A stretch of 64,000 bases of DNA from Pseudomonadota bacterium (GTDB lineage: Bacteria; Pseudomonadota; Gammaproteobacteria; Burkholderiales; UBA9220), in assembly GCA_021845865.1 (NCBI GenBank), contig JAJZVC010000010.1, positions 840 through 64,839 on the forward strand, in the 5' to 3' direction. Below, piece after piece: positions 36,821 through 48,512 of the stretch. A model generated the notes under the pieces. The model ran no database searches. It saw only the letters and a list, made by a program, of their open reading frames with translations, and was not told the origin of the DNA. How positions within the stretch are numbered: position 1 is the first letter of the stretch; every line of letters starts with the position of its first letter. The position numbers were made by a program, and so were the translations under genes.

Positions 36821-37909
36821 ATGAAAGAACAAGAAACCCTGGCTGAACATCTTCGCCGGCAAGGCATCAGCCGCCGCTCCTTTCTCAAGTTTTGCGTGGC
36901 CACCGCCTCCCTCCTCGGCCTGCCGCCGGGGATGGCGCCCCTGATGGCCGAAACCCTGGGCAAGGTCAGGCGCCCGTCGGTGATCTGGCTCTCCTTCCAG
37001 GAATGCACCGGCTGTACCGAATCCCTGACCCGCTCCCACTCCCCCACCCTGGAAAGCCTGCTGTTCGATTTCATTTCCCTCGACTATCACCACACCCTCC
37101 AGGCCGCCTCGGGCGAAGCGGCGGAGCGGGCGCGGGAAGAGGCGATGAAGGCCAATTACGGCAAGTACCTGGTGCTGGTGGACGGCTCGGTCCCCCTGGG
37201 AGAGGGCGGGGCCTATTCCACCATCGCCGGCCGCACCAACCTGGAAATGCTCGAAGAGACCGCCAAGGGGGCGGCGGCCCTGATTGCCATCGGCACCTGT
37301 TCCTCCTACGGCGGCCTGCCCTACGCCCATCCCAACCCGACGGGGGCGGTTCCGGTGTCGGCCATCGTCAAGGACAAGCCCGTCGTCAACGTTCCCGGCT
37401 GCCCGCCGATCCCCCTCGCGATCACCGGCGTGGTGGCCCATTACCTGATGTTCGGCGCCCTGCCGGAACTGGACGAGAAGGGACGCCCCCTTTCCATTTA
37501 CGGCGAGACCATCCACGACCGCTGCTACCGCCGCCCCTTCTACGACCAGGGAAAGTTCGCCAAGACCTTCGACGACCGGGGCGCCCGCGCCGGCTGGTGC
37601 CTGTACGAGCTGGGGTGCAAGGGGCCCACGACCCACAACGCTTGCGCCACCACCAAGTGGAACGGCGGCACCAGCTTTCCTATCGAATCCGGCCACGGCT
37701 GCCTCGGCTGCTCCGAGCCCGACTTTTGGGACGCGGGCAGTTTCTACCAAGCGCTGTCCACCCCGCTCTCGTCCCTCGACAAGGCAGCGGGGGTGGCGGC
37801 GGGCGCGGGGGTGGCGGCGGGCGCCGCCATTGCCGTCCACAACCGTGCCGCCAAGCGCGCGGCGAAGGCCGGCCATCAGGCCGTGACGGTCAACGACCTG
37901 GAGAAGTGA
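36821..37909 (+). CDS. hynS: [NiFe] hydrogenase small subunit (Isp-type, group 1e-like)
   Basis: Tat signal SRRSFLKFC; Fe-S cluster Cys pattern (ECTGCTES..., GTCSSYGG, PGCPP, ...GCLGCSEP). Confidence 0.9.
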   Translation: MKEQETLAEHLRRQGISRRSFLKFCVATASLLGLPPGMAPLMAETLGKVRRPSVIWLSFQECTGCTESLTRSHSPTLESLLFDFISLDYHHTLQAASGEAAERAREEAMKANYGKYLVLVDGSVPLGEGGAYSTIAGRTNLEMLEETAKGAAALIAIGTCSSYGGLPYAHPNPTGAVPVSAIVKDKPVVNVPGCPPIPLAITGVVAHYLMFGALPELDEKGRPLSIYGETIHDRCYRRPFYDQGKFAKTFDDRGARAGWCLYELGCKGPTTHNACATTKWNGGTSFPIESGHGCLGCSEPDFWDAGSFYQALSTPLSSLDKAAGVAAGAGVAAGAAIAVHNRAAKRAAKAGHQAVTVNDLEK

Positions 37910-38569
37910 ATGAGCGACATGGAATTGCTGCTATGGGCGCGGGGGCCGGGACTGCAAGGAGCGGTGGCGGTTTTCGTCGCCGGCATGGCGTTGCGCCTGA
38001 TCGAAATCTACAGCCTGGGGCGCAAACGGGACCTTTCCCCGGCGCGGCCGGGAAACGGCGGTGCCGGCTGGGCGACCATCATCACCCGCAGCATTCCCCA
38101 CAAGGAATTGCTGCGAACCACCTATCTGACCTATATCCTGGGTTATACCTTCCACATCGGCCTGTTCGTCACCCTGCTGCTGTTCGCGCCCCATATTCAG
38201 CTGTTTCGCGGCGTCCTGGGTTTCGGTTGGCCTTCCCTGCCCTCGCCGGTGGTGGATGCCGTGGCCCTGGTGTCCATCGCGGCCTTGTTTGGCATGCTGG
38301 CTTACCGCCTTTATCACCCGGTAAAGCGTTTCCTTACCACCTTCGGCGACCACGCGGCCTGGCTGCTGACCATGCTGCCACTGCTGACCGGCTATCTGGC
38401 TTTCCATCATCTGCTGTTGCCCTATACCCTGATGCTGGCGGTGCACATCCTGTCGGTGGAACTGCTTCTGGTCTTCATGCCCTTCACCAAGCTGGTCCAC
38501 GTGGCGACGATTTTCATTTCCCGCTGGTACAACGGCGACATGCTGGGGCATAAGGGGGCGCGGCTATGA
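37910..38569 (+). CDS. isp1: Isp1, NarI/DsrM-like membrane b-type cytochrome subunit
   Basis: 219-aa polytopic membrane protein encoded directly between small and large hydrogenase subunit genes. Confidence 0.75.
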   Translation: MSDMELLLWARGPGLQGAVAVFVAGMALRLIEIYSLGRKRDLSPARPGNGGAGWATIITRSIPHKELLRTTYLTYILGYTFHIGLFVTLLLFAPHIQLFRGVLGFGWPSLPSPVVDAVALVSIAALFGMLAYRLYHPVKRFLTTFGDHAAWLLTMLPLLTGYLAFHHLLLPYTLMLAVHILSVELLLVFMPFTKLVHVATIFISRWYNGDMLGHKGARL

Positions 38570-38606
38570 ACGGGTGCTTGCGGCACGAGGAAAGAAAGGC
38601 GGAGCC

Positions 38607-39875
38607 ATGAGCGCATCGTTCGAGCGTGGCGTGAATTCCTTCCGGGAGGTGATGGATGCGCCCATCGCCAGTTTTTTCTCCAGTTGCGTCCATTGCGGCC
38701 TGTGCGCCGATGCCTGTCTGTTTTACACGGAAACGGGCGATCCGAAATACACGCCGATTTACAAGTTGGAGCCTCTGAAGCGCCTGTGGCGCCAGGAATA
38801 TACCTTGTTGGGCAAGCTGGCCTCCCTGGCGGGGCTGTCCAAGCCCATCACGGATGCCGAGCTGGCGGAGTGGAGCGAACTGGTCTACGACAGCTGCACC
38901 CTCTGCGGGCGCTGCACGGTGGCTTGCCCGGTGGGCAACGACATCACCTACATGGTGCGCAAGATGCGCGAAGGCATGGCGGCAGCCGGTCATGCGCCGG
39001 AAGGGGTGATCGAAGCCACCCGCAAGACCATCGAGCAGGGCAGCCCCATGGGGATTCAGCTCAAGGCGTTTTTGGCGCAGGTAAAGGGGCAGGAGGAGGA
39101 AACCGGCATCGAGATTCCGCTGGACAAGGCGGGAGTGGATTATCTGGTCATCATGTCGTCCATGGAGATTCTCGGCTATCCCGAATACCTCGGTTCCCTG
39201 GCGCGCATCTTCAAGCAGGCCGGCCTGACCTGGACGGTGTCTTCCGAGGCCTTCGAGGCCACCAACAGCGGCATCCAGATCGGGGTGTCGGACATCGCGC
39301 GGGAAATCGTCCTGCGTGTCGTCAACGCGGCGGAGAAGCTGGGGGTGAAGTACGTCATCAGTCCCGAGTGCGGCCACGCTTTCACCGCCCTGCGTTGGGA
39401 AGGGCCGAACCTGATCGGCCGCCCCTACAAATTCGAGGTGGTGCACGTCTTGGAACTGCTCGATCAGTTGCGTCGCGCCGGCAAGCTCAAGACGGTGGGC
39501 AAGACCGATGAACCCCTTACGCTCCACGATCCCTGCCAGATCGTGCGTCGCGGCGGCGTGGTGGCCGAACCGCGGAATTTGATCCGGATGGTGGCGTCGG
39601 ATTTCCGCGAGATGGAAGATTCCGGCATGTACAACTGGTGCTGCGGCGGCGGTGGCGGCGTATCCGCCAACCATCGGGCGGAAGAATTGCGCTTCACCGT
39701 CTTCAAGCGCAAGAAACGCCAGATCGAGGGCACGGGAGCGGTCACCATGGTCACCGCCTGCGCCAACTGCCGCAATGTGCTGGAAGAAGGCCTGGAGCGC
39801 TACCACATGGATACCAAGATGATCGGTTTGACCGAACTGGTCGCCGAACACCTGAAAGAGGATGAACAGGCATGA
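38607..39875 (+). CDS. isp2: Isp2, HdrD/DsrK-like Fe-S protein with CCG domains
   Basis: CVHCGLCADAC and CTLCGRCTVACP ferredoxin motifs; CCG-type Cys clusters (PECGHAF, DPCQIV, NWCCGGGGG); ATG 38607 preferred to track start. Confidence 0.8.
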   Translation: MSASFERGVNSFREVMDAPIASFFSSCVHCGLCADACLFYTETGDPKYTPIYKLEPLKRLWRQEYTLLGKLASLAGLSKPITDAELAEWSELVYDSCTLCGRCTVACPVGNDITYMVRKMREGMAAAGHAPEGVIEATRKTIEQGSPMGIQLKAFLAQVKGQEEETGIEIPLDKAGVDYLVIMSSMEILGYPEYLGSLARIFKQAGLTWTVSSEAFEATNSGIQIGVSDIAREIVLRVVNAAEKLGVKYVISPECGHAFTALRWEGPNLIGRPYKFEVVHVLELLDQLRRAGKLKTVGKTDEPLTLHDPCQIVRRGGVVAEPRNLIRMVASDFREMEDSGMYNWCCGGGGGVSANHRAEELRFTVFKRKKRQIEGTGAVTMVTACANCRNVLEEGLERYHMDTKMIGLTELVAEHLKEDEQA

Positions 39876-41641
39876 ACCACCGCGTCGTCGTCGACCCCAT
39901 CACCCGCATCGAGGGCCATCTGCGCATCGAGGCGGAAACCACCCCGGACGGCACCATCACCCAGGCCTATAGCTCCGGCACCATGGTGCGGGGGCTGGAA
40001 ATCATCCTCCAGGGACGCGATCCCCGCGACGCCTGGGCCTTCGCCCAGCGCATCTGCGGCGTCTGCACCCTGGTCCATGGCCTGGCTTCGGTGCGGGCGG
40101 TGGAGGATGCGCTGAAATACCCCATTCCGCCCAACGCCCAGATTATCCGCAACCTGATGGCGGCGGCCCAGTACGTCCACGACCACGTGATGCACTTCTA
40201 CCACCTCCACGCCCTGGACTGGGTGGACGTGGTTTCCGCCCTGAAGGCCGATCCGAAGAAGACCTCCGAATTGGCCCAGTCCATCAGCGGCTATGCGAAA
40301 TCCTCTCCCGGCTATTTCGCCGATACACAGAAGCGTCTGAAGAATTTCGTCGACGGCGGGCAGCTGGGTATTTTCGCCAACGGCTACTGGGGCCACCCGG
40401 CGTACAAGCTGCCGCCGGAGGCCAACCTGATGGCGGTGGCCCATTATCTCGAGGCCTTGGCTTGGCAGCGGGACGTGGTGAAGCTGCACGCCATTTTCGG
40501 CGGCAAGAACCCCCATCCCAACTTCGTGGTGGGGGGCGTGCCCTGCGCCATCAGCGCCGAACCGGGACACCCCGGCAAAGGGCAAGGGCCCCGCCATCGG
40601 GGCGGCGGGGGGGCGACAGCCGTGGATATGCAGGGCTTGCAACTGGTGAAGAACGTCATCGACCAGATGCGGGAGTTCGTCGATCAGGTCTACCTCCCCG
40701 ATGTCCTGGCGATCGCCGGCTTCTATAAGGACTGGGCGTCCCAGGGGGAAGGGCTGGGGAATTTCCTCACCTATGGCGATTTTCCGGCGAAGGGCTTTGG
40801 TGGCGTGGATGATTTCATCGTTCCACGGGGGGTGATCCTCAACCGGGACCTCGGCGCCATCCACGAACTGGACCTCAATGCCCCGGACCAGATCCAGGAG
40901 TTCGTGGCCCATTCCTGGTACGACTACAGCGGCGGCAAGGACAAGGGCCTGCATCCCTACGATGGCGAAACGGCGCTCCACTATACCGGGCCGAAACCGC
41001 CCTACGACCAACTGGAAGTGGCGCAGGGCTACTCCTGGCTCAAATCGCCGCGTTGGAAGGGGCGCGCCGTGGAAGTGGGGCCCCTGGCGCGGGTGCTGAT
41101 GATGTATGCCAAGGGGCACGCCCAGACCAAGGAGCTGGTGAGCCACGTCCTCAAGACCCTGGACGTTCCGGCGGCAGCCCTCTATTCCACCCTCGGCCGT
41201 ACCGCCGCCCGTGCCCTGGAAAGCAAGGTCATGGCCGATGCCATGACCGGCTGGTACGACACCCTCATCGCCAATATCCGTGCCGGGGACGTGAATACCT
41301 TCAACGCCGACCTGTGGGAGCCCTCCTCCTGGCCGAAGGAAGCCAGGGGCGTGGGCTTCATGGAAGCCCCCCGGGGCGCCCTGGGCCACTGGCTGGTGAT
41401 CCAGGACGGCAAAATCGCCAACTATCAGGCGGTGGTCCCCAGCACCTGGAATGCCGGCCCCCGCGACCCCCAGGGGCAGCCGGGGGCCTACGAGGCTTCC
41501 CTCCAGTCAACCCGTCTCCATGACGCCCAGCAGCCCATCGAAATCCTGCGCACCATCCACAGTTTCGATCCCTGCATCGCCTGCGCGGTGCATGTCGTCT
41601 CGCCAGAAAGCGAAGGCAGTTTCCGCGTCAGGGTGGATTGA
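39872..41641 (+). CDS. hynL: [NiFe] hydrogenase large subunit
   Basis: RICGVC N-terminal and DPCIACAVH C-terminal Ni-Fe ligand motifs, with a C-terminal extension after the His (protease-processed type); ATGA overlap with isp2. Confidence 0.95.
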   Translation: MNHRVVVDPITRIEGHLRIEAETTPDGTITQAYSSGTMVRGLEIILQGRDPRDAWAFAQRICGVCTLVHGLASVRAVEDALKYPIPPNAQIIRNLMAAAQYVHDHVMHFYHLHALDWVDVVSALKADPKKTSELAQSISGYAKSSPGYFADTQKRLKNFVDGGQLGIFANGYWGHPAYKLPPEANLMAVAHYLEALAWQRDVVKLHAIFGGKNPHPNFVVGGVPCAISAEPGHPGKGQGPRHRGGGGATAVDMQGLQLVKNVIDQMREFVDQVYLPDVLAIAGFYKDWASQGEGLGNFLTYGDFPAKGFGGVDDFIVPRGVILNRDLGAIHELDLNAPDQIQEFVAHSWYDYSGGKDKGLHPYDGETALHYTGPKPPYDQLEVAQGYSWLKSPRWKGRAVEVGPLARVLMMYAKGHAQTKELVSHVLKTLDVPAAALYSTLGRTAARALESKVMADAMTGWYDTLIANIRAGDVNTFNADLWEPSSWPKEARGVGFMEAPRGALGHWLVIQDGKIANYQAVVPSTWNAGPRDPQGQPGAYEASLQSTRLHDAQQPIEILRTIHSFDPCIACAVHVVSPESEGSFRVRVD

Positions 41642-41794
41642 TGTCAATTTGATGCGTATTCGCTGGGCAATGCGGGTTTTGTCTTATTGCGGCACGGGTT
41701 TAAATGTACTAGTATCCGCCGGGTAACCAATAACAACAATTATCTAAACATCATTGATTGTGTTGCCGCTTGAGGCGGCAAACGGGAGGTTGTT

Positions 41795-43129
41795 ATGTCG
41801 AAGCAGGGGCGCTGGCTGCTGTTAGCATTGTTGCTGGGCCTGACCGGGGAGAGCTTTGCCGCCGACCCGGCCATGCTCAAGCAGGCACAGGAGTTGATGG
41901 CACAAGGTAACGCCAAAGGCGCCTACGAACTCCTCATTCCCAAGCAATCTGATTATGCCGGCGAAGTCGATTACGACTATTTGCTCGGTATTGCCGCTCT
42001 GGACGCGGGGCACCCGACCGAGGCGGTGTTCGCCCTGGAACGGGTGCTGGCGGTGAACCCCGATCATGCCCAGGCGCGAGCCGAAATTGCCCGGGCCTAT
42101 TTCCAGATGGGCGAGCTGGATGCTTCCAAGCAACAGCTGGAAATGGTGCAAAGCCAAAAGCCGCCGGCCCAGGTGCAGGCCAGCATCAGCAAATTCCTGG
42201 AAGCCATCGAACAGGCCAAGTCCGCGGAGCGGACCACGGTACGGGCGTATCTGGAAGGCGCGCTGGGTTACGATACCAACGTCAACGCGGCGACCTCGAA
42301 TATCCAAGTGGCCATTCCGGCTTTCGGCGGTGCGATTGCGACCCTGAGCAATACCGCGACCAAACAGCATGATGAGTTCTATTCCCTTAGCGGCGCTCTG
42401 AACGTGCGCCACATGGCGACCCCGGATCACGTGATTTTCGCCGGCGGCAGCTTCAATCGCCGTTTCAATTTCAGCACGCCCCAGGACCAGTTCAATACCG
42501 GCACCCTGGACGGCAACGTCGGCCTCAGCATCATCAGGGGGGACAACGTCTTTACCGGCGCCATGCAGGTGCAGAATTTCACGGTGGATGAAAAGGACTA
42601 TCGCAACGCCGATGGCTTTTCCTTCCAGTGGATGCGCAACCTGAGCCAGGTAAGCCAGTTTACAGCCTATGTCCAGTACACCGACCTGACTTATCCCGGA
42701 CAGTCTCCCCGGGATGCCGGGCGCACGGTTTTGGGCGCGGCCTATGCGCGAGCCTTGGGTGGGGATTACTCGCCGGTGGTGTATATCGGCGGTTATGGCG
42801 GCAACGAAATAGCCAAGGTCGATAGATTCAACTACAACGGCCACGATGTCTACGGCGTGCGCCTGGGGGGCGAAATGCGCTACACCGACAAGGCGACGCT
42901 TTTTGCCTCTCTCAGCTATGAGGACCGCCGCTATCGGGGCATTGATCCCCTTTTCCTGGACCGCCGCCATGACAAGCAAACAGACCTGAACCTTGGGGTG
43001 AATTATGTGGTGGCGCCGAAGTGGACGGTGAAGCCGCAACTCAGCTACACCCTGAACGATTCCAACTGGACGCTTAACGACTACGACCGGACGATGGTGA
43101 GCGTGAGCGTTCGCCGCGACCTCAATTAA
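41795..43129 (+). CDS. Slam-like outer-membrane protein (N-terminal TPR plus DUF560-type beta-barrel)
   Basis: Signal peptide; TPR region (AQGNAKGAYELL..., AGHPTEAVFALERVLAVNPDH...); C-terminal alternating beta-strand pattern (YLEGALGYDTNVN... to the end) as in DUF560/Slam proteins. Confidence 0.65.
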   Translation: MSKQGRWLLLALLLGLTGESFAADPAMLKQAQELMAQGNAKGAYELLIPKQSDYAGEVDYDYLLGIAALDAGHPTEAVFALERVLAVNPDHAQARAEIARAYFQMGELDASKQQLEMVQSQKPPAQVQASISKFLEAIEQAKSAERTTVRAYLEGALGYDTNVNAATSNIQVAIPAFGGAIATLSNTATKQHDEFYSLSGALNVRHMATPDHVIFAGGSFNRRFNFSTPQDQFNTGTLDGNVGLSIIRGDNVFTGAMQVQNFTVDEKDYRNADGFSFQWMRNLSQVSQFTAYVQYTDLTYPGQSPRDAGRTVLGAAYARALGGDYSPVVYIGGYGGNEIAKVDRFNYNGHDVYGVRLGGEMRYTDKATLFASLSYEDRRYRGIDPLFLDRRHDKQTDLNLGVNYVVAPKWTVKPQLSYTLNDSNWTLNDYDRTMVSVSVRRDLN

Positions 43130-43145
43130 GCGGGAGGAAAAGCAG

Positions 43146-44570
43146 ATGACCCCTCAGCAGCGATTCAAACCGGCCCGTCAGGCCCTGATGCTGGCCTTGA
43201 TCGTGGCCGCCTTCCCCCTCGGCGCCCAGGCCTCGGCGGGCAGGCTGGATTTCGTCTTCGGCCGCGTGACGGCGACTGGCGTTGATGGCAAGGAACGGCT
43301 CCTTCTCAAGGGCGACGAAATCAACTCCGGCGAAGCCGTGAATACCGCCCCCAATGCCCGGGCGCAAATCCGCTTTACCGACGGGGCTTTCATGTCCCTG
43401 CAGCCCAGTACCACCTTCAAGGTGGACGACTATCGTTTCGCCGGCAAGGCTGACGGCAGTGAAAAGGGCTTCTTCAGCCTCGTCAAAGGCGGGCTGCGCA
43501 CTATTACCGGCGCCATCGGCCACGGCAAGAACCGGGACGCCTATCAGGTCTCGACCCCTGCCGCCACCATCGGCATCCGGGGGACCGGCTACACCGCCAA
43601 GTTGGGCAATAGCTTGTCGGTAAGCGTGGGCGAAGGCGCCATCGCGCTCCTCAATAATGGGGGCGCACTGGTGCTCACGGCGGGCCAGACTGGCTACGTG
43701 AAGGATTTCAACACCGCGCCGCAACTGACTTTCGAAAAGGCCTCCGCGCCGCCAGCGAGCCTTGGGTCGCAAAGCTCGACCAACACGAACGAGCAGAAAA
43801 ACCCGCCGCCGGAGTATTGTTCCGGTTGCAACACGGGCGGTGGCCTGGGGACTAAAACCATCACGGGGGTGACGGGGGTGATGTCGCGGAGTTCGTCTCT
43901 TGCCTATGGCAACACCACCATTGCCACGGATACGGGCGGCACGCTGGTGCTGGACGATTCCATGAACCGGGTCTATTACCAGGATGGGACGAGCGGGACC
44001 ATCACCAGCTTTACCGGGGCAACCCTCGACAAGACCTCATCCGGCAGCTATGCGCCCTATGGTTTCGATGGCATCGTCGGCTGGGGCCGTTGGTATGGGA
44101 CTCTCACCTATACCGAGGGCGGTGTAACCACCACCAGGACAGCTTCCTCGGCAGAGGGCATGCACGGAGTGGCTGGCTTGCCCGCCACGATGCCGACGGT
44201 GGGTTATGCCAGCTATAGCCTGAGCGGGGCGACGAACCCGACGGATGGTACCAATGTCGGCTATGGTACCGGTGGTTCCATCAGCGTCTATTTTGGCTCG
44301 TCCCCGTCCTTATCCGGTAACTACAGCTACCATCTTGCTGCTACCAACTACAACTTGACGTTTAGCGCCAGCAATTGGAGCGGTAGTCAGTTCACGACCA
44401 GTGGCAGTATCACGGGTGGTAGTGGCGGTAGTGCCAGTGTCCACGGCTTCTTTGCTGGGAGCAATGCCGAGCGCATCGGCATGTCCTTCCAAGGGACGAT
44501 CTCTAGCGGACCTACGCAAAACGGTGCGGCGGTGTATTCTCAAACTTATTACTCGCATACCGTGCCTTAA
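43146..44570 (+). CDS. Exported FecR-domain protein with TbpB-like C-terminal beta-barrel (candidate Slam/TXISS cargo)
   Basis: SPase-I type leader (...AAFPLGAQA/SAG, no lipobox Cys); FecR-type domain (LKGDEINSGEAVNTAPNARAQIRFTDGAFMSLQPST); C-terminus ASVHGFFAGSNAERIGMSFQG resembles the terminal strands of TbpB-type barrels. Confidence 0.6.
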   Translation: MTPQQRFKPARQALMLALIVAAFPLGAQASAGRLDFVFGRVTATGVDGKERLLLKGDEINSGEAVNTAPNARAQIRFTDGAFMSLQPSTTFKVDDYRFAGKADGSEKGFFSLVKGGLRTITGAIGHGKNRDAYQVSTPAATIGIRGTGYTAKLGNSLSVSVGEGAIALLNNGGALVLTAGQTGYVKDFNTAPQLTFEKASAPPASLGSQSSTNTNEQKNPPPEYCSGCNTGGGLGTKTITGVTGVMSRSSSLAYGNTTIATDTGGTLVLDDSMNRVYYQDGTSGTITSFTGATLDKTSSGSYAPYGFDGIVGWGRWYGTLTYTEGGVTTTRTASSAEGMHGVAGLPATMPTVGYASYSLSGATNPTDGTNVGYGTGGSISVYFGSSPSLSGNYSYHLAATNYNLTFSASNWSGSQFTTSGSITGGSGGSASVHGFFAGSNAERIGMSFQGTISSGPTQNGAAVYSQTYYSHTVP

Positions 44571-44597: not shown

Positions 44598-44630
44598 AAA
44601 AACCGCAGCGCAATGCTGCGGTTTTTATTT
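44598..44630 (+). terminator. Rho-independent terminator
   Basis: AAAAACCGCAGC-GCAAT-GCTGCGGTTTTT then ATTT, 28 nt after the stop at 44570; shows that track start 44583 for the next ORF is spurious. Confidence 0.85.
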
Positions 44631-44639
44631 GAGCCGGGC

Positions 44640-46718
44640 ATGAGCTCGCACTACGAGACCGCCCTGGAAAAGATTCGCTGTGGCGAATGGACGTCTGCGT
44701 TGGAATACTTGGAGCGGGCGGTTGCGCAAGACCCATCCAATGTGGCCGTTCGAGGGGCCAAGGGAACCGTGCTCTTTAACCTTGGCCGTCTTGGCGAGGC
44801 GGAACGGGTCCTGCGTAAAGCGCTCCACCTGGACAAGGGGAACGTTCAGGTCCGGGGCGATCTGGCGTTTGTGCTCGAACATTTGGGACGGCCTGCCGAG
44901 GCGCTGGAGCAATATGACCGGGTTTTGGAGATTGCCCCGGACCACATGCAGGCGCGGGTGAATCGAGGCGGCGTGCTGATGTCCCTGGGGCGTCATGCCG
45001 AAGCGCTGGCCAACAACCATTCCGTCGCGGCGGCTTACCCCGAGCGGCCTCTCGCCCACTTCAACCTTGGCGAGGCGCTGCTGGCCGTTGGGGAATGGGG
45101 GGCGGCGCTGGCGGCTTTCGACGAGGCTTTAAGGCTGCAGCCGGATTATGCCAAGGCCCACTTCAACTGCGGGGTGGCGTTGTCCATGGTGGCGGAATTC
45201 GCCGGGGCCAAGGAGGCTTTCGCCGTGGCAAGGCGGCTGGACGAACCGCTTTATCGCCAGTGTCTGGAGAATGTCCGGCGCGCGTCCGGACTTGACCGCC
45301 TGCTTCTCGATGCGGTGCCGCAACGCATCTACCTGTCGGGCATGTACGTTCGCCAGGAAGCCTGCGATTGGCGCAACCGAACGGCGTATAGAGAAAATTT
45401 CCTGCGCTGGCTGGAAAATGGCGAGCCTTTCATGGACGACCAAGCCTTGGCGTTTCAGGGGCTGTCGTTATTGCGCGAACCGCGACACCAGCTGGAACTC
45501 TGTCGGCGGATAGCGGGCAAAATAGTCAGGGAGGCCGGGCTTCCGTTGCCCCCGCCTTCGCCTTTCCCGGGGAAAAAAGAAAAAATCCGCGTGGGTTATG
45601 TGTCGCCGGATTTCCGTTTTCACCCCACGGCCCGGCTGTCGCGGCAGCTTTTTCACCTCCACGATCGCGAACGCTTTGAAGTCTATGCCTATTCACTCCA
45701 GCCAGACGATGGGAGCGCGCTGCATCGCGACATTCGTCATGCCTGTGACCGTTTCGTCGATGTCGCCGGGCTGGGTTCTCGCGAGTTGGCGCAACGTATC
45801 CGGGAGGATGGGATTGATATCCTGGTGGATATGGCAGGGCATACCCGCAAGAGCCGATTCGAGGTCTTTGCCCTGCGGGCGGCGCCCCTGCAAGTGGCTT
45901 ACCTGGCATTTCCGAGCACCACTGGAGCGGATTTCATCGATTATCTGGTGACGGATGCCGTGACCAGCCCCGCCGGTTCGGCGCGGTTTTATTCCGAGAG
46001 GCTGGTTTTCCTGCCGCGAAGCTACGTGATGTACGACAACGAACAAAGGGTCGGGGCCGCGCCATCCCGCCGCGAGGCGGGGTTGCCGGAAAACGGCACG
46101 GTATTCTGCTGCTTCAACAATCCTTACAAGGTCGAGCCGGAGATATATTCCGTCTGGATGCGCATCCTGGAAAGGGTCCCGGGCAGCATCTTGTGGCTCC
46201 TTGCGGGAAAGGAAGGCGTGGAAAGCAATCTGCGCCGGGAGGCGGAGGTTCGGGGCGTTGCGCCGGAGCGCCTGGTTTTCGCTCCCTTTGTCGGCGATTC
46301 GCCACGCCATCTTGCCCGCTATCGCCTGGCCGATTTGTTTCTCGACACGACGGTATGCAACGCACATACTACCGCAGCGGATGCCCTCTGGGCGGGCCTG
46401 CCCGTTCTCACTTGCGCGGGAGAGGCTCATTGGTCCCGGGTGGCGGCCAGTTTGCTGGAGTCGGTGGGATTGCCGGAATTGGTTGCGGCGAATTTGATGG
46501 AATACGAGAACAGGGCGGTGGCGTTGGCCCGCCGGCCCCAGGATATGGCGGAATTGAAATCCAAGCTGGAGCACCATAAAAGAACGTGGCCGCTGTTCGA
46601 TACGGCGGCGCTGGTGACGTCTTTGGAGGAAGCCTATCAACGGATGTGGGGCCGGCATCTGGCCGGCCAGCCTCCGCGGTCGTTCAGCCTGCCTGCGGCG
46701 GCTAGCAAGGGAGGGTGA
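44640..46718 (+). CDS. TPR-repeat protein with GT41 (O-GlcNAc transferase/SPINDLY-like) C-terminal domain
   Basis: 692 aa from ATG 44640; several TPRs then VGYVSPDFRFHPT...DILVDMAGHT...FCCFNNPYKV...DLFLDTTVCNAHTTAADALWAGLPVLT. Confidence 0.8.
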   Translation: MSSHYETALEKIRCGEWTSALEYLERAVAQDPSNVAVRGAKGTVLFNLGRLGEAERVLRKALHLDKGNVQVRGDLAFVLEHLGRPAEALEQYDRVLEIAPDHMQARVNRGGVLMSLGRHAEALANNHSVAAAYPERPLAHFNLGEALLAVGEWGAALAAFDEALRLQPDYAKAHFNCGVALSMVAEFAGAKEAFAVARRLDEPLYRQCLENVRRASGLDRLLLDAVPQRIYLSGMYVRQEACDWRNRTAYRENFLRWLENGEPFMDDQALAFQGLSLLREPRHQLELCRRIAGKIVREAGLPLPPPSPFPGKKEKIRVGYVSPDFRFHPTARLSRQLFHLHDRERFEVYAYSLQPDDGSALHRDIRHACDRFVDVAGLGSRELAQRIREDGIDILVDMAGHTRKSRFEVFALRAAPLQVAYLAFPSTTGADFIDYLVTDAVTSPAGSARFYSERLVFLPRSYVMYDNEQRVGAAPSRREAGLPENGTVFCCFNNPYKVEPEIYSVWMRILERVPGSILWLLAGKEGVESNLRREAEVRGVAPERLVFAPFVGDSPRHLARYRLADLFLDTTVCNAHTTAADALWAGLPVLTCAGEAHWSRVAASLLESVGLPELVAANLMEYENRAVALARRPQDMAELKSKLEHHKRTWPLFDTAALVTSLEEAYQRMWGRHLAGQPPRSFSLPAAASKGG

Positions 46719-47738
46719 GTGGCCATGGCCGGAAAACTGACCCTCGCGGCGATAGCGCGCTTGACCCGTCAACGCTATCACCATGATCTGGTGGCGAATC
46801 TGGTGAGTCTGGCGGCCCGCCTGCTGGGAACGCGGTCCGTCGGCTATTACGAAGTGGCGGCTCCGGAGGAGGAGGGCGGCTCGCCCAGGTTCCAGAACTA
46901 CCTGGCGCCTGACGGCCCGCCGCCATCTTGGGGGGAAGAGAAGGTTTTGCTGCGCGCCTATCGGCGCCGCCGGCCAGTCAGGGGGAAGGTGTCTCATGGG
47001 GCGGGACAGAAAACCTGCGTGGTTTACCCGATATTGGGGGCGGCAGGGGTGCAGGCCTTGTTGCTGGCGCGGGTGCGCGCCGCTCAATCGGCCGGCCAGC
47101 GGGAACTGGGCCAGCTGCTGGCGGTGTATCAAAACTTTCTCCAGCTGTTCGAGCGCGTGGACCGCGATGCCTTGACGGGGCTTTACAACCGCCAGGCATT
47201 CGGCGAAACCATCAACCGCATCATGCATCCGGCACGGGGGGCACGAGGCCGGCGCAAGGACCGGGAGCATGTCTATTGGCTGGGCATCCTGGATATCGAT
47301 CACTTCAAGAACGTGAACGACCGCCACGGCCACCTCATCGGGGACGAGGTGCTGCTGCTGTTCGCCCGCCTGATGCGGGATACTTTCCGCTACGAGGACA
47401 GGCTGTTCCGTTACGGCGGGGAGGAGTTCATCGTTCTTCTGGAGGGGGCGAACGGCGATAGCGCGCAGCAGGTATTCGAGCGCTTCCGGTTGGCGGTGGA
47501 GGCAACCCGTTTTCCGCAGGATACCCGCATTACCGTCAGCATCGGCTACACCGAAATTTCCCACGAAGGTCTGCCCAGCGACGTCATCGACCGGGCCGAC
47601 CGGGCTCTTTACGTCGCCAAGAACTCCGGCCGCAATCAGGTCTTGGGGTACGAGGATCTCCTCGCCCAGGGACGCCTGCGCCAAGCCGAATATCCCTCCC
47701 ATCAGGACATCCAGCTCTGGCTCAACGCCAAGGCGTAA
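46719..47738 (+). CDS. Diguanylate cyclase (GGDEF) with N-terminal GAF-like region
   Basis: LTGLYNRQAF...DIDHFKNVNDRHGHLIGDEVL...RYGGEEFIVLL; GTG 46719 abuts the upstream stop (alternative ATG 46725). Confidence 0.85.
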   Translation: MAMAGKLTLAAIARLTRQRYHHDLVANLVSLAARLLGTRSVGYYEVAAPEEEGGSPRFQNYLAPDGPPPSWGEEKVLLRAYRRRRPVRGKVSHGAGQKTCVVYPILGAAGVQALLLARVRAAQSAGQRELGQLLAVYQNFLQLFERVDRDALTGLYNRQAFGETINRIMHPARGARGRRKDREHVYWLGILDIDHFKNVNDRHGHLIGDEVLLLFARLMRDTFRYEDRLFRYGGEEFIVLLEGANGDSAQQVFERFRLAVEATRFPQDTRITVSIGYTEISHEGLPSDVIDRADRALYVAKNSGRNQVLGYEDLLAQGRLRQAEYPSHQDIQLWLNAKA

Positions 47739-47876
47739 GCGCGCTGGCCTGTCTATCTCCTTGCCCCAGCAGAGAAATGCCAGGGGCTTGTTTTTAGTTA
47801 CGGCGCATATCTAATAAGTTGCATTTATTATTTATCGCTTTATACTGAAAACTAAGGTTTTTTATTGGGGGGTGTC

Positions 47877-48512
47877 ATGAGAGCAAATTCTGCCGCCAAG
47901 GAACATGTCGGATCGGGGCCGGGGGGCATCCCGGGGGTCTATCCTGTGGCCTCCGGGAATCAGAACTGCGCCTGGATGCGTGCCCCGTGGGGGGAGGAGG
48001 ATGATGGGCTCCACGCCGAGCGGCGCGCCGAGGTGAAAAGCGACCGTTACCAGCGAGCCGTCTCCCGCCTGCTGAAAGAGGAAGTGCTGTACGTCAAGTT
48101 CAGCGAGGCGGAGGGATGCCTGACCATCAAGATTCGCGGCGGCACGATGCGGGATTTCGGCGATTGCCTGGTGATGGAGAACGGCACCGACCGCGAAATA
48201 GCCTGTCTGGGCAAGCTGGTGGGCTTCAAGCAGTGGCAGTCCCTGGAGTTGTCGGGGAGCAGCCGTTTCCGGGAACAGGCCATGCTGGAATGCCTGCGCT
48301 ACGGCGTGCAGGTGCTGGGGTGCTCCATGCCCGAGCATTTGCGGGCCAGACTGATGGAAATGAAGCGCGAGCCGGCGCGCCCGGTGCTGCGTCCCGTCGC
48401 GGCGCCCAAGCCGCGCTCTGCGCCGAAAGCGGCCGAACCCTTGGGGAAGGATGCCGAGCGGGAGATGCTGGAATCCGTGGAGCACTACATCCTGGACATG
48501 CTGAGCGATTAA
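47877..48512 (+). CDS. Hypothetical protein
   Basis: 211 codons from ATG 47877 with GC-rich third positions; preceded by an AT-rich 140-nt region; no family confidently recognised. Confidence 0.5.
   Translation: MRANSAAKEHVGSGPGGIPGVYPVASGNQNCAWMRAPWGEEDDGLHAERRAEVKSDRYQRAVSRLLKEEVLYVKFSEAEGCLTIKIRGGTMRDFGDCLVMENGTDREIACLGKLVGFKQWQSLELSGSSRFREQAMLECLRYGVQVLGCSMPEHLRARLMEMKREPARPVLRPVAAPKPRSAPKAAEPLGKDAEREMLESVEHYILDMLSD

What the first reader, a model, noticed from the sequence alone, without database searches (positions are those of the whole stretch)
41795..44570. Slam/DUF560-like barrel followed by a non-lipidated FecR-domain protein with a TbpB-like barrel: candidate type XI secretion pair with novel cargo
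The gene at 41795-43129 encodes a signal peptide, an N-terminal TPR region and a C-terminal beta-barrel-like domain. This is the architecture of Neisseria Slam (DUF560) proteins. The gene 16 nt downstream encodes a 474-aa protein with three parts: an SPase-I type leader (no lipobox Cys), a FecR-type domain, and a Ser/Thr/Gly-rich C-terminal region. That region ends in ASVHGFFAGSNAERIGMSFQG, which resembles the last strands of TbpB/HpuA-type 8-stranded barrels. Those strands act as the Slam recognition module. DUF560 proteins are established to export the neighbouring gene product to the cell surface (TbpB, LbpB, fHbp, HpuA; NilB/NilC; hemophilin-type non-lipidated cargo). A FecR-domain passenger is not among the cargo classes I know. 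A strong terminator (44598-44630) closes the pair.
Basis: partly seen in the sequence, partly recalled or inferred. Interest (0 to 1): 0.65.

Follow-up and report, generated by a model that had tools for sequence, protein, structure and literature searches.

The report
Slam-type secretion pair, FecR-domain cargo
Two adjacent genes in a sulfur-oxidiser-like betaproteobacterium encode a Slam/type 11 outer-membrane exporter and what looks like its passenger, a non-lipidated protein with a FecR-like head and a TbpB-like tail barrel; this would be the first predicted cargo for a large, unstudied environmental branch of this secretion system.

Summary
Gene 1 (41795-43129) is a DUF560/SlipAM outer-membrane protein. 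Its model has a signal peptide, seven TPR-type helices and 14 β-strands. Its Sideroxydans ES-1 orthologue (53% identity) sits in T11SS network cluster 2, which has no characterised member and no predicted cargo. Gene 2 (43146-44570) encodes five parts: an SPase-I leader, a FecR-like domain, a disordered linker of about 60 aa, a β-handle and an eight-stranded barrel. The only structural relatives of the handle and barrel are known Slam cargoes (TbpB, hemophilin, NHBA, fHbp). The pairing is conserved in both directions: 70 of 73 cargo-seeded genome loci and 65 of 65 OMP-seeded metagenome loci. No lipobox occurs in 45 of 45 homologues. No TonB receptor, ECF sigma factor or Fur box is linked.

An OGT-type TPR-GT41 glycosyltransferase follows the pair in about 60% of loci. 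The FecR-like domain is the most conserved part of the cargo, the reverse of known cargo. Its first ~65 residues resemble the LapA/MpIBP periplasmic retention module.

No searchable paper describes this cargo class. Export itself is untested. Verdict: interpretation supported in silico; a new variant of a known kind; moderate interest.

The parts
41784..41789 (+). GGGAGG ribosome-binding site of the OMP gene
   Evidence: Read directly from the sequence, 5 nt before the ATG at 41795.
41795..43129 (+). T11SS/Slam-family outer-membrane protein gene (444 aa), DUF560/SlipAM, SSN cluster 2 type
   Evidence: ORF. PF04575 scores 32.1 bits against a gathering score of 22. All 42 of 42 homologues match SlipAM. 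Orthologue Slit_2212 is in SSN cluster 2.
41795..41860 (+). Sec signal peptide of the OMP (residues 1-22, ...ESFA|ADP)
   Evidence: Inspection of the translation. AF2 models an N-terminal helix at residues 3-16.
41867..42229 (+). Periplasmic TPR domain (residues 25-145, seven helices)
   Evidence: TPR_19 at 46.4 bits. AF2 helices span 25-145 at pLDDT 75-93. Mean pairwise identity is 68%.
42236..43120 (+). 14-stranded β-barrel (residues 148-442), including a conserved low-confidence loop at residues 165-188
   Evidence: AF2 models 14 strands. Best barrel superposition is 14-stranded OmpG, TM 0.70. The loop holds invariant residues A173, P175, G178, G179 and L184.
43132..43137 (+). GGGAGG ribosome-binding site of the cargo gene, inside the 16-nt spacer
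   Evidence: Read directly from the sequence.
43146..44570 (+). Predicted T11SS cargo gene (474 aa)
   Evidence: ORF. At least 907 homologues. Found directly after the OMP gene in 70 of 73 and 65 of 65 loci.
43146..43232 (+). SPase-I signal peptide (residues 1-29, ...GAQA|SAG); no lipobox
   Evidence: Inspection. None of 45 homologues has a canonical lipobox.
43239..43739 (+). FecR-like β domain (residues 32-198); its first ~65 residues also resemble the LapA/MpIBP retention module
   Evidence: PF04773 at 47.2 bits. Foldseek: 4m0n, TM 0.51, rmsd 2.9; and 5ix9, TM 0.76, rmsd 0.9, 31% identity. The profile's top PDB sequence hit is 5ix9, E = 0.006. NF033682 scores 29.7 bits, below its cut-off. 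Mean pairwise identity is 66%.
43749..43928 (+). Disordered Pro/Ser/Thr/Gly-rich linker (residues 202-261)
   Evidence: pLDDT below 50. Mean identity is 27%; length across the family is 43-82 aa.
43938..44180 (+). β 'handle/pedestal' domain (residues 265-345) with the invariant DGxxGWGRW motif
   Evidence: AF2 strands at pLDDT 80-90. W313 and R315 are invariant. Hemophilin matches span handle plus barrel.
44181..44555 (+). TbpB-like eight-stranded β-barrel (residues 346-470), the presumed T11SS targeting domain
   Evidence: Eight strands at pLDDT 88-97. Foldseek hits are TbpB, HphA, NHBA and fHbp. Homologues P0047 and P0051 pass the TbpB_B_D gathering score. Conserved motif: GFFAGxNAxRAG...GAAAF.
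44598..44630 (+). Intrinsic terminator hairpin between the cargo gene and the GT41 gene
   Evidence: -20.1 kcal/mol, z = -3.4. Sequence shown.
44640..46718 (+). TPR + GT41 (OGT-type) glycosylt­ransferase; probable third member of the module. The start is probably the ATG at 44640, although the mechanical ORF begins at TTG 44583.
   Evidence: PF13844 at 335 bits. Closest solved structures: human OGT at 8e-113, XcOGT at 3e-81; HMW1C/NGT only at 4e-7. Found downstream on the same strand in 43 of 67 and 14 of 27 loci, and in ES-1 after a 38-nt gap.

Best explanation
The two genes form a type 11 (Slam/DUF560) secretion pair of the uncharacterised 'cluster 2' branch.

Inferred mechanism, by analogy with characterised Slam systems: both proteins cross the inner membrane through Sec. 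Protein 1 inserts in the outer membrane as a 14-stranded barrel with a TPR domain in the periplasm. Protein 2 is cleaved by signal peptidase I and is not lipidated. Periplasmic holdases keep it unfolded. The OMP recognises it through its C-terminal TbpB-like eight-stranded barrel and threads it across the outer membrane, where handle, barrel and the N-terminal FecR-like domain fold outside. Without a lipid anchor it would then be released or held non-covalently at the surface, as hemophilin-type cargo is. The FecR-like domain would act as the effector (binding) module.

The OGT-like TPR-GT41 enzyme encoded next door in most relatives probably O-glycosylates the Ser/Thr-rich cargo in the cytoplasm before export. 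This step has low confidence.

Shown here: domain architectures, folds, family membership, and the two-way conserved gene pairing. Inferred: recognition, translocation, final location, glycosylation and biological role.

I put about 0.8 on the general claim that the OMP exports the product of gene 2. The confidence given below is for the full-translocation version.
For: OMP: SlipAM passes the gathering score and matches 42 of 42 homologues. AF2 gives TPR helices plus 14 strands. Orthologue Slit_2212 (D5CUQ3) is listed in SSN cluster 2.

Cargo: AF2 gives a handle plus an eight-strand barrel at pLDDT 84-97. Foldseek probability-1.00 hits for that part are all known Slam cargo: TbpB 7.5e-6, HphA 2e-4, NHBA-C TM 0.62, fHbp. 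TbpB_B_D matches 10 of 45 homologues, and two pass the gathering score over the equivalent region. No lipobox in 45 of 45.

Linkage: the OMP gene lies directly upstream on the same strand in 70 of 73 cargo-seeded genome loci, median gap about 30 nt. The cargo gene lies directly downstream in 65 of 65 OMP-seeded metagenome loci. The other flanking genes differ between lineages, so the unit moves as a module. Four loci carry two tandem full-length cargo paralogues behind one OMP gene.

Published basis: Slam1 is an autonomous translocon for unfolded substrates and recognises a C-terminal motif (PMC9090332). The eight-strand barrel is common to all cargo (PMC5449769). Unlipidated cargo are secreted (PMC12282271).

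GT41: OGT-type and conserved downstream.
Against: There is no experimental evidence of export for any cluster 2 OMP. The window protein itself gets no Pfam barrel hit at E < 0.1. A profile of its C-terminal region finds no solved Slam cargo by sequence, and hhalign against fHbp is not significant. No Slam structure is in the PDB, so the closest folds to the OMP are generic 14-strand barrels and TPR-porins of polysaccharide export. The domain conservation pattern is the reverse of known cargo: FecR-like domain 66% against barrel 41%. That is unexpected for a free extracellular effector and fits the tethered rival at least as well. For GT41: a strong terminator separates it from the cargo gene in this window, it is absent from about 40% of loci, and N-sequons are not enriched.
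Confidence: 0.55

Rival explanations
1. Tethered display. The pair is a T11SS, but only the handle and barrel reach the outside. The N-terminal FecR/retention-like domain folds in the periplasm and cannot pass the 14-strand pore, and the 43-82 aa disordered linker stays threaded through the OMP. The periplasmic plug would then replace the lipid anchor of classical Slam lipoproteins, much as the LapA/MpIBP retention module anchors type 1-secreted adhesins in their TolC-like pore.
For: The first ~65 mature residues match the MpIBP anchoring domain 5ix9: Foldseek TM 0.76, rmsd 0.9 A, 31% identity. 5ix9 is also the top PDB sequence hit for the domain profile, E = 0.006, and NCBIfam retention_LapA gives E = 6e-7. 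A long, non-conserved, disordered linker is always present. The FecR-like domain (66%) is as conserved as the OMP's periplasmic TPR domain (68%), while the handle and barrel evolve fast at 38-41%. FecR-domain distances track OMP distances at r = 0.83-0.86. Slam needs unfolded substrates (PMC9090332).
Against: The retention_LapA score (29.7 bits) is below its cut-off of 50, and the same residues also match generic FecR, so the resemblance may only reflect a shared fold. No LapG-type conserved di-alanine site appears in the alignment (by inspection). The mirror-tree signal has no phylogenetic control. In known T11SS cargo the N-terminal domain is exported. No in-silico test separates the two topologies.
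Confidence: 0.2
2. Not a protein secretion pair. Protein 1 would be a TPR-porin for another substrate, for example an exopolysaccharide as with BcsC, PgaA, PelB or EpsL. The FecR-domain protein would be a periplasmic sensor or accessory factor, with the glycosyltransferase pointing to glycan biology.
For: The top Foldseek hits of the OMP model are BcsC (2.5e-15) and PelBC. There is a weak NCBIfam EpsL hit, E = 9e-10. PF04575 is known to pick up PgaA-like proteins (PMC8406197). FecR domains are usually periplasmic. Short FecR-only paralogues sit beside histidine kinases in some loci.
Against: The EpsL and BcsC scores are far below their cut-offs: 38 against 275 bits, and 20 against 858. The model has 14 strands, and its best barrel superposition is 14-stranded OmpG. 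No polysaccharide synthase, copolymerase or flippase is conserved in 79 loci. GT41 is a protein-modifying, OGT-type family. The neighbour always carries a handle plus TbpB-like barrel, a fold that in the PDB search matched only Slam cargo.
Confidence: 0.1
3. The C-terminal eight-strand barrel of protein 2 is itself an integral outer-membrane anchor (OmpX/PagP/OmpA-like), inserted by BAM, with the FecR-like domain in the periplasm. The Slam-like protein would be an assembly helper rather than a translocon.
For: Eight-stranded barrels are also a common membrane-anchor fold. InterPro annotates many Slam-adjacent proteins as 'PagP-β-barrel' (PMC5449769).
Against: Foldseek ranks soluble TbpB, HphA, NHBA and fHbp barrels at probability 1.00. 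Integral barrels appear only at probability 0.12-0.25. The barrel region is rich in Ser, Thr, Gly and Asn. The family's C-terminus (GAAAFxK plus variable tails) does not end in the terminal aromatic residue typical of BAM substrates (by inspection; the BAM signal is from general knowledge).
Confidence: 0.05

Closest known systems
Hemophilin-type T11SS pairs (Hpl, HphA/HsmA, HrpC/HrpB)
   Same: A DUF560 OMP gene lies next to a non-lipidated, Sec-dependent cargo built from a β-handle plus a C-terminal eight-stranded barrel. HphA structures are among the best Foldseek matches, covering about 260 aligned columns.
   Different: Hemophilins have no extra N-terminal domain or long linker. They bind haem through the handle and sit with TonB-dependent receptors, haem oxygenase and FecI/FecR regulators. 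Here there is a FecR-like head, no TonB or haem context, no Fur box, and a different SSN cluster: cluster 2 rather than cluster 1.
Neisseria Slam1/Slam2 with TbpB, LbpB, fHbp, HpuA
   Same: The OMP has the same architecture of TPR domain plus a predicted 14-strand DUF560 barrel. The cargo has a handle-barrel lobe. One OMP can serve several cargo paralogues.
   Different: The classical cargo are lipoproteins with a lipobox, and none of the 45 family members here has one. The hosts here are free-living chemolithotrophs and relatives, not animal-associated bacteria. The conservation pattern is inverted: conserved N-domain, variable barrel.
FecR-type anti-sigma factors (FecIRA signalling)
   Same: Both share the PF04773 β domain. 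The structural match to the putative anti-sigma factor BDI_1681 (4m0n) has TM 0.51 and rmsd 2.9.
   Different: There is no cytoplasmic anti-sigma domain and no transmembrane helix; the domain directly follows a cleavable leader. No ECF sigma factor or TonB-dependent transducer is nearby or conserved. The protein is fused to a secretion-type barrel.
LapA/MpIBP retention module of type 1-secreted adhesins
   Same: The N-terminal β-sandwich is closely superposable (5ix9: TM 0.76, 31% identity). It is followed by a long extended region and an exported C-terminal part.
   Different: Those adhesins have no Sec leader, use a T1SS with a TolC-like pore, and are released by LapG cleavage under c-di-GMP control. 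The NCBIfam model is matched only below its cut-off.
HMW1A/HMW1B/HMW1C of Haemophilus influenzae (from general knowledge)
   Same: A three-gene logic: secreted surface protein, dedicated outer-membrane transporter, and a cytoplasmic GT41 glycosyltransferase that modifies the passenger before Sec export.
   Different: The transporter there is a two-partner-secretion Omp85 protein, not DUF560. HMW1C is an N-glucosyltransferase without TPRs, whereas the enzyme here is OGT-type with TPRs. N-sequons are not enriched in the cargo.

Membership tests
T11SS / Slam outer-membrane protein (DUF560, PF04575) | C-terminal DUF560/SlipAM domain detected by the family profile | tested here: met
   32.1 bits against a gathering score of 22, residues 259-441. 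All 42 of 42 homologues match, best E = 1.1e-13. The match covers only profile positions 104-286 of 288.
T11SS / Slam outer-membrane protein (DUF560, PF04575) | N-terminal periplasmic TPR domain behind a Sec signal peptide | tested here: met
   TPR_19 at 46.4 bits. Seven helices at residues 25-145 in the AF2 model. The leader ...ESFA|ADP is judged by inspection. The Slam-specific TPR_Slam profile is matched only weakly, 19.3 bits against 35.2.
T11SS / Slam outer-membrane protein (DUF560, PF04575) | Predicted 14-stranded membrane barrel (PMC5449769) | tested here: met
   The AF2 model has exactly 14 strands at residues 148-442, mostly pLDDT 84-95. Best barrel superposition is 14-stranded OmpG, TM 0.70. 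This is a prediction only.
T11SS / Slam outer-membrane protein (DUF560, PF04575) | Placement in a named SSN cluster of Grossman et al. 2021 | tested here: met
   P0201 is 53% identical over 94% of the query. It is ADE12440.1 / D5CUQ3 / Slit_2212, which Table S1 lists with Cluster Number 2 and 236 sequences. The network itself was not recomputed.
T11SS / Slam outer-membrane protein (DUF560, PF04575) | Necessary and sufficient for moving its cargo across the outer membrane | not testable with these tools
   This needs co-expression and shaving assays or reconstitution in proteoliposomes.
T11SS cargo (Slam-dependent proteins) | C-terminal eight-stranded TbpB_B_D / lipoprotein-C-type β-barrel | tested here: met
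   Structure: eight strands at 353-470, pLDDT 88-97, and Foldseek hits to TbpB, HphA, NHBA and fHbp. Sequence: the window protein has no Pfam hit. Homologues P0047 and P0051 pass the TbpB_B_D gathering score, 34.8 and 29.5 bits against 26, and 10 of 45 members match.
T11SS cargo (Slam-dependent proteins) | β 'handle/pedestal' domain preceding the barrel | tested here: met
   AF2 strands at 265-345, pLDDT 80-90. Hemophilin alignments span about 260 columns.
T11SS cargo (Slam-dependent proteins) | Sec-type signal peptide | tested here: met
   A hydrophobic h-region followed by an AQA|S site, by inspection. No signal-peptide predictor was available.
T11SS cargo (Slam-dependent proteins) | Gene adjacent to its DUF560 OMP gene | tested here: met
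   70 of 73 and 65 of 65 loci. Two of the three orphan copies are in MAGs that also carry a complete pair.
Slam-dependent surface lipoproteins (SLP subclass) | N-terminal lipobox with Cys at +1 | tested here: not met
   No Cys in the leader of the window protein. None of 45 homologues has a canonical lipobox; where a Cys occurs it follows Tyr, and that column alternates with G, S or A. The protein therefore belongs with the soluble-cargo subclass, not the SLPs.
FecR-type anti-sigma factor | Cytoplasmic anti-sigma domain, transmembrane helix and periplasmic FecR domain, with a partner ECF sigma factor and TonB-dependent transducer | tested here: not met
   Only the PF04773 domain is present, directly after a cleavable leader. 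No sigma-70 or TonB receptor gene lies within about 6 kb or among the conserved neighbours of 79 loci.
LapA-type retention module (NF033682) | Profile match above the curated cut-off, in a T1SS substrate lacking a Sec leader | tested here: not met
   29.7 bits against a cut-off of 50, and a Sec leader is present. The structural resemblance is real (5ix9, TM 0.76) but does not make this a family member.
Exopolysaccharide export TPR-porins (BcsC / PgaA / EpsL) | Family profile above cut-off, with polysaccharide synthase genes in the cluster | tested here: not met
   EpsL 38.1 bits against 275; BcsC 19.9 against 858. No synthase is conserved nearby.
GT41 OGT-type protein O-glycosyltransferase (third gene) | N-terminal TPRs plus a GT41 catalytic domain | tested here: met
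   PF13844 at 335 bits plus several TPR families. Human OGT at 8e-113, XcOGT at 3e-81, SPINDLY at 4e-67. The acceptor substrate cannot be tested here.

The most novel reading that the evidence does not exclude
A lipid-free way of anchoring a T11SS passenger. The conserved FecR/retention-module-like head folds in the periplasm, possibly docking on the OMP's TPR domain, and plugs the Slam pore. The disordered linker stays threaded through it, and only a fast-evolving, possibly O-glycosylated handle-barrel is displayed on the cell surface. This would be a convergent counterpart, in a Sec-dependent single-protein secretion system, of the LapA/LapE retention mechanism. It would also be the first functional model for the second-largest branch of T11SS.
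Probability: 0.17. Interest if true: 0.8.

Novelty: new variant of a known kind. Interest (0 to 1): 0.55.

Why it matters
T11SS/Slam biology rests almost entirely on animal-associated cluster 1. The 2021 network paper says the other nine clusters contain no characterised proteins and transport 'as-yet-unknown cargo'. The 2025 cargo survey covered only clusters 1 and 3.

This locus and its roughly 300 species-level relatives give cluster 2 a specific, near-universal cognate cargo. That cargo has a domain never listed among T11SS passengers. It occurs in free-living iron-, sulfur- and methyl-oxidising Betaproteobacteria and has no metal-uptake context.

The prediction can be tested directly in cultured strains (Sideroxydans lithotrophicus ES-1, Methyloversatilis universalis) or by two-gene co-expression in E. 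coli.

The conserved OGT-like enzyme offers a concrete case for the published speculation that T11SS cargo may be glycosylated. The inverted conservation pattern raises the question of how a non-lipidated passenger is retained.

Tried and rejected
Sequence-only links to solved Slam cargo. A profile of the handle and barrel against PDB sequences found nothing relevant. This agrees with the published remark that Slam cargoes share fold rather than sequence.

Iron regulation. The best Fur-box match upstream of the OMP gene is 12 of 19, no better than 14 other sites in the window. Rejected.

RNA and promoter elements. No Rfam element in 35-51 kb at E <= 0.1. No sigma-70-like promoter upstream of the OMP gene.

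HMW1C-like N-glycosylation. NxS/T sequons are not enriched, z about 0-0.4, and the enzyme is OGT-type. Rejected in favour of possible O-glycosylation.

Expression data for the ES-1 locus. The locus tags occur in no searchable paper. The transcriptome and proteome supplements gave no entry, though the files were truncated when stored.

Mirror-tree test. FecR-domain distances correlate with OMP distances at r = 0.83-0.86, but there is no phylogenetic control. I treat this as evidence of co-inheritance only.

Apparent exceptions. L103 and L126 seemed to lack a FecR gene after the OMP gene. Both turned out to be artefacts of my HSP filter.

Other recurrent neighbours. thrC, hom, an aminotransferase, a decarboxylase, dcd, mrp and dnaJ, identified by eye from the translations, are lineage-specific housekeeping synteny and not part of the module.

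Tools not used. I did not run the representative-library search or the third homologue search. Their top lists would have been filled by the same family and would not have changed the verdict.

Full report
OBSERVATION

They are 16 nt apart, and each is preceded by GGGAGG.

Protein 1 starts with a typical Sec leader (…GESFA|ADP). It matches Pfam TPR_19 (46.4 bits) and SlipAM/DUF560 (PF04575, 32.1 bits against a gathering score of 22, residues 259-441).

Protein 2 has a leader ending …PLGAQA|SAG without Cys, and a FecR domain (PF04773, 47.2 bits, residues 65-166). Pfam matches nothing after residue 170. Its C-terminal 274 residues are 30% Ser+Thr and 17% Gly.

The hairpin at 44598-44630 (AAAAACCGCAGC-GCAAT-GCTGCGGTTTTTATTT) folds at -20.1 kcal/mol, z = -3.4. 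The pattern scanner did not list it, probably because A-U pairs extend the stem into the T-run.

WHAT PROTEIN 1 IS

It has 1,287 detectable homologues. Nearly all carry precomputed PF04575, and sources name some of them 'surface lipoprotein assembly modifier' or 'DUF560 domain-containing protein'. In a sample of 42, all match SlipAM (best E = 1.1e-13); porin-like families such as BBP2_2 score weaker.

An AlphaFold2 model built on that alignment (mean pLDDT 82) shows seven helices at residues 25-145 and then exactly 14 β-strands at 148-442. It also has a low-confidence but highly conserved loop at 165-188. Fourteen strands plus an N-terminal TPR domain is the architecture published for Slam1 (PMC5449769).

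The PDB search returned no solved Slam. The nearest folds are therefore generic: 14-stranded OmpG (TM 0.70), CymA, FadL, and the TPR-porins BcsC and PelBC. That raises an exopolysaccharide-porin rival. However, NCBIfam scores for EpsL (38 bits against 275) and BcsC (20 against 858) are far below their cut-offs, and no polysaccharide synthesis genes are conserved nearby.

The homologue P0201 is 53% identical over 94% of the query. It is ADE12440.1 = D5CUQ3 = Slit_2212 of Sideroxydans lithotrophicus ES-1. Table S1 of Grossman et al. 2021 assigns it to SSN cluster 2 (236 sequences, 159 nodes, 79% environmental). That paper states that the nine clusters other than cluster 1 contain no characterised proteins and probably carry unknown cargo. 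The 2025 follow-up analysed only clusters 1 and 3.

WHAT PROTEIN 2 IS

It belongs to a family of at least 907 proteins, annotated only as 'FecR family protein' or 'hypothetical protein'. Most come from Gallionellaceae, Sulfuricellaceae, other Nitrosomonadales, Rhodocyclaceae and Burkholderiales. The window's nearest relative is a Sulfuricellaceae MAG at 92-97% amino-acid identity.

An AF2 model on 45 homologues resolves five parts:
- the leader;
- a β domain at residues 32-198 (pLDDT about 60-85);
- a disordered linker at 202-261 (pLDDT below 50);
- a β 'handle' at 265-345 (pLDDT 80-90);
- eight strands at 353-470 (pLDDT 88-97).

A Foldseek search of the PDB returns, at probability 1.00, only known Slam/T11SS cargo for the C-terminal part: TbpB (7.5e-6), A. 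baumannii and other HphA hemophilins (2e-4, about 260 aligned columns), the NHBA C-domain (TM 0.62) and fHbp. Integral membrane barrels appear only at probability 0.12-0.25.

The N-terminal domain matches the FecR-like putative anti-sigma factor 4m0n (TM 0.51, rmsd 2.9 Å). Over its first ~60 residues it matches the MpIBP 'cell surface anchoring domain' 5ix9 (TM 0.76, rmsd 0.9 Å, 31% identity).

At sequence level the window protein itself does not reach any barrel family. Ten of 45 homologues match TbpB_B_D and two match HphA_C. P0047 and P0051, which are 40-43% identical to the window protein over 94-95% of its length, pass Pfam's own gathering score for TbpB_B_D (34.8 and 29.5 bits against 26) over the region that aligns with window residues ~345-460.

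The family alignment shows the hallmark motifs …MPTxGxAxYxLxG… at the start of the barrel and GFFAGxNAxRAG…GAAAFxK at its end. It also shows an invariant DGxxGWGRW motif in the handle.

None of the 45 homologues has a canonical lipobox. Where a Cys occurs near the cleavage site it follows Tyr, and that column alternates with Gly, Ser or Ala. The family is therefore processed by signal peptidase I.

The protein is not a FecR-type anti-sigma factor. It lacks the cytoplasmic domain and the membrane helix, and no ECF sigma factor or TonB-dependent receptor lies nearby or among conserved neighbours.

LINKAGE

A scan of 185,579 species-representative genomes found 310 loci encoding a relative of protein 2, and 79 were fetched. 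Of the 73 with enough upstream sequence, 70 have the Slam-like gene upstream on the same strand, with a median gap of about 30 nt. Two of the three orphan copies are in MAGs that also hold a complete pair.

The reverse search seeded on the OMP gave 65 metagenome loci with at least 400 nt downstream. All 65 carry the FecR-handle-barrel gene directly after the OMP gene. Two apparent exceptions were filter artefacts.

An unbiased clustering of all ORFs in the 79 genome loci found only one other widely conserved real gene, the downstream glycosyltransferase. The remaining recurrent neighbours, identified by eye from the translations, are housekeeping genes that differ by lineage: thrC/hom in Gallionellaceae, a decarboxylase in some Rhodocyclaceae, and the NiFe hydrogenase only in the window's own species. 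The unit therefore moves as a module.

Four loci have two tandem full-length cargo paralogues behind one OMP gene. This echoes Slam systems in which one OMP serves several cargoes.

THE THIRD GENE

The ORF after the terminator probably starts at the ATG at 44640 and ends at 46718. It is a TPR + GT41 enzyme (PF13844, 335 bits) of the OGT type: human OGT 8e-113, XcOGT 3e-81, SPINDLY 4e-67, against 4e-7 for HMW1C/NGT.

A homologue lies downstream on the same strand in 43 of 67 genome loci and 14 of 27 metagenome loci with enough sequence. These include distant Rhodocyclaceae and Burkholderiales. In the complete genome of S. lithotrophicus ES-1 the order is OMP, 27 nt, FecR protein, 38 nt, TPR-GT41.

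It has no signal peptide by inspection, so any modification of the cargo would occur in the cytoplasm before Sec export. N-sequons are not enriched, which fits O- rather than N-glycosylation.

This link is an inference from synteny only. In this window a strong terminator separates the two genes. Neither T11SS paper reports GT41 co-occurrence, and the 2025 paper only speculates that other cargo may be glycosylated.

AN UNEXPECTED PATTERN

Across the same 45 homologues, mean pairwise identity is 66% for the FecR-like domain, 27% for the linker (length 43-82 aa), 38% for the handle and 41% for the barrel. For the OMP, the TPR domain is 68% and the barrel 59%.

This pattern, together with the resemblance of the first ~65 mature residues to the LapA/MpIBP retention module, keeps a tethered-display model alive. 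In that model the head stays in the periplasm as a plug and the linker threads the pore. The evidence is indirect. The retention_LapA score is below its cut-off, the same residues match generic FecR, and the mirror-tree correlation (r = 0.83-0.86 between FecR-domain and OMP distances) has no control for shared ancestry.

MECHANISM

Shown here are the architecture, folds, family membership and conserved pairing. The rest is inferred from characterised Slam systems.

In those systems Slam1 is an autonomous translocon for unfolded substrates, which Skp holds and which are recognised through a C-terminal motif (PMC9090332). The eight-strand barrel is the shared feature of all cargo (PMC5449769). 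Unlipidated cargo are released (PMC12282271).

On that basis the protein would be exported by Sec, cleaved by SPase I, recognised through its barrel, translocated and folded outside. It would then be released or held non-covalently at the surface.

I put about 0.8 on the general claim that this OMP exports this neighbour. Within that, about 0.55 goes to full translocation and about 0.2 to the tethered variant. About 0.15 goes to readings in which this is not a secretion pair.

The biological role is unknown. There is no iron-uptake context: no TonB receptor, no ECF sigma factor, and no convincing Fur box (best match 12 of 19). The best NCBIfam neighbours of the head domain are Leptospira surface adhesins Lsa33 and LipL45, far below their cut-offs. 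An adhesive or surface-interaction role is therefore a reasonable guess, and nothing more.

NOVELTY

No paper in the searchable library holds both 'DUF560' and 'FecR'. The T11SS papers that mention FecR treat it as a neighbouring iron regulator. No recent T11SS paper covers cluster 2. The iron-oxidiser literature does not mention the locus.

The general design of effector, pedestal and C-terminal barrel next to a DUF560 OMP is established. This is therefore a new variant of a known kind rather than a new kind: a new head domain, a new (environmental) T11SS branch, a conserved OGT-like partner, and an inverted conservation pattern. Subscription-only literature and database notes could not be searched, so prior description cannot be excluded.

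Noticed in passing
window 44640-46718 (mechanical ORF from 44583); L080 10892-13102: An OGT-type TPR-GT41 glycosyltransferase follows the OMP-cargo pair on the same strand in 43 of 67 genome loci and 14 of 27 metagenome loci, including S. lithotrophicus ES-1 after a 38-nt gap. This suggests a three-gene module and possible O-glycosylation of the Ser/Thr-rich cargo.
   Followed up: partly
window 43239-43739 compared with 43938-44555: Domain conservation is inverted relative to published T11SS cargo. The FecR-like head has 66% mean pairwise identity, the handle 38%, the barrel 41% and the linker 27%. The OMP's periplasmic TPR domain has 68%.
   Followed up: partly
window 42287-42358 (OMP residues 165-188): This loop between barrel strands 1 and 2 is modelled with very low confidence (pLDDT 30-42). 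It is nevertheless among the most conserved stretches of the OMP: A173, P175, G178, G179 and L184 are invariant, and the loop averages 69% identity. It could be a plug or gating loop.
   Followed up: no
L023 2297-5193, L025 6536-9413, L026 1732-5078, L072 1760-4789: Two full-length FecR-handle-barrel paralogues lie in tandem behind a single Slam-like gene.
   Followed up: partly
L029 14028-16727; L023 10208-12962; L025 13902-14642; L053 4467-5291: Short FecR-only paralogues (233-274 aa, most with a Pro-rich tail and no barrel) lie a few kb downstream of the module. In L029 and L023 a sensor histidine kinase gene follows. This may be a signalling link to the FecR-like domain.
   Followed up: no
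window 36821-41641: A four-gene NiFe hydrogenase cluster lies directly upstream: small subunit, a 219-aa gene with no Pfam match that reads by eye as a membrane protein, an Fe-S/CCG HdrD-like protein, and the large subunit. The order looks like the Isp-type arrangement, recalled from general knowledge. It is conserved only in the same-species MAG (L001), so it is not part of the module.
   Followed up: no
window 46719-47738: A GGDEF diguanylate cyclase gene starts at the base after the GT41 stop codon (46718/46719), which suggests translational coupling. It is not conserved next to the module in other lineages.
   Followed up: partly
window 41762-41782: A perfect 8-bp GC-rich hairpin (TTGCCGCC/GGCGGCAA) lies just upstream of the OMP gene's ribosome-binding site. 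It has no T-run; -14.7 kcal/mol, z = -2.0. Its function is unknown.
   Followed up: no
window 43818-43829 (cargo residues 225-228): The window protein has a CxxC pair (C225, C228) in the linker. It lacks the CxxGC pair that most family members carry just before the last barrel strands, so the position of the probable disulfide is not fixed in the family.
   Followed up: no
window 47865-48512: An ORF with a marginal LPD7 match ('large polyvalent protein-associated domain 7', 28.2 bits against a cut-off of 27). It may be a remnant of a mobile element or a chance ORF.
   Followed up: no
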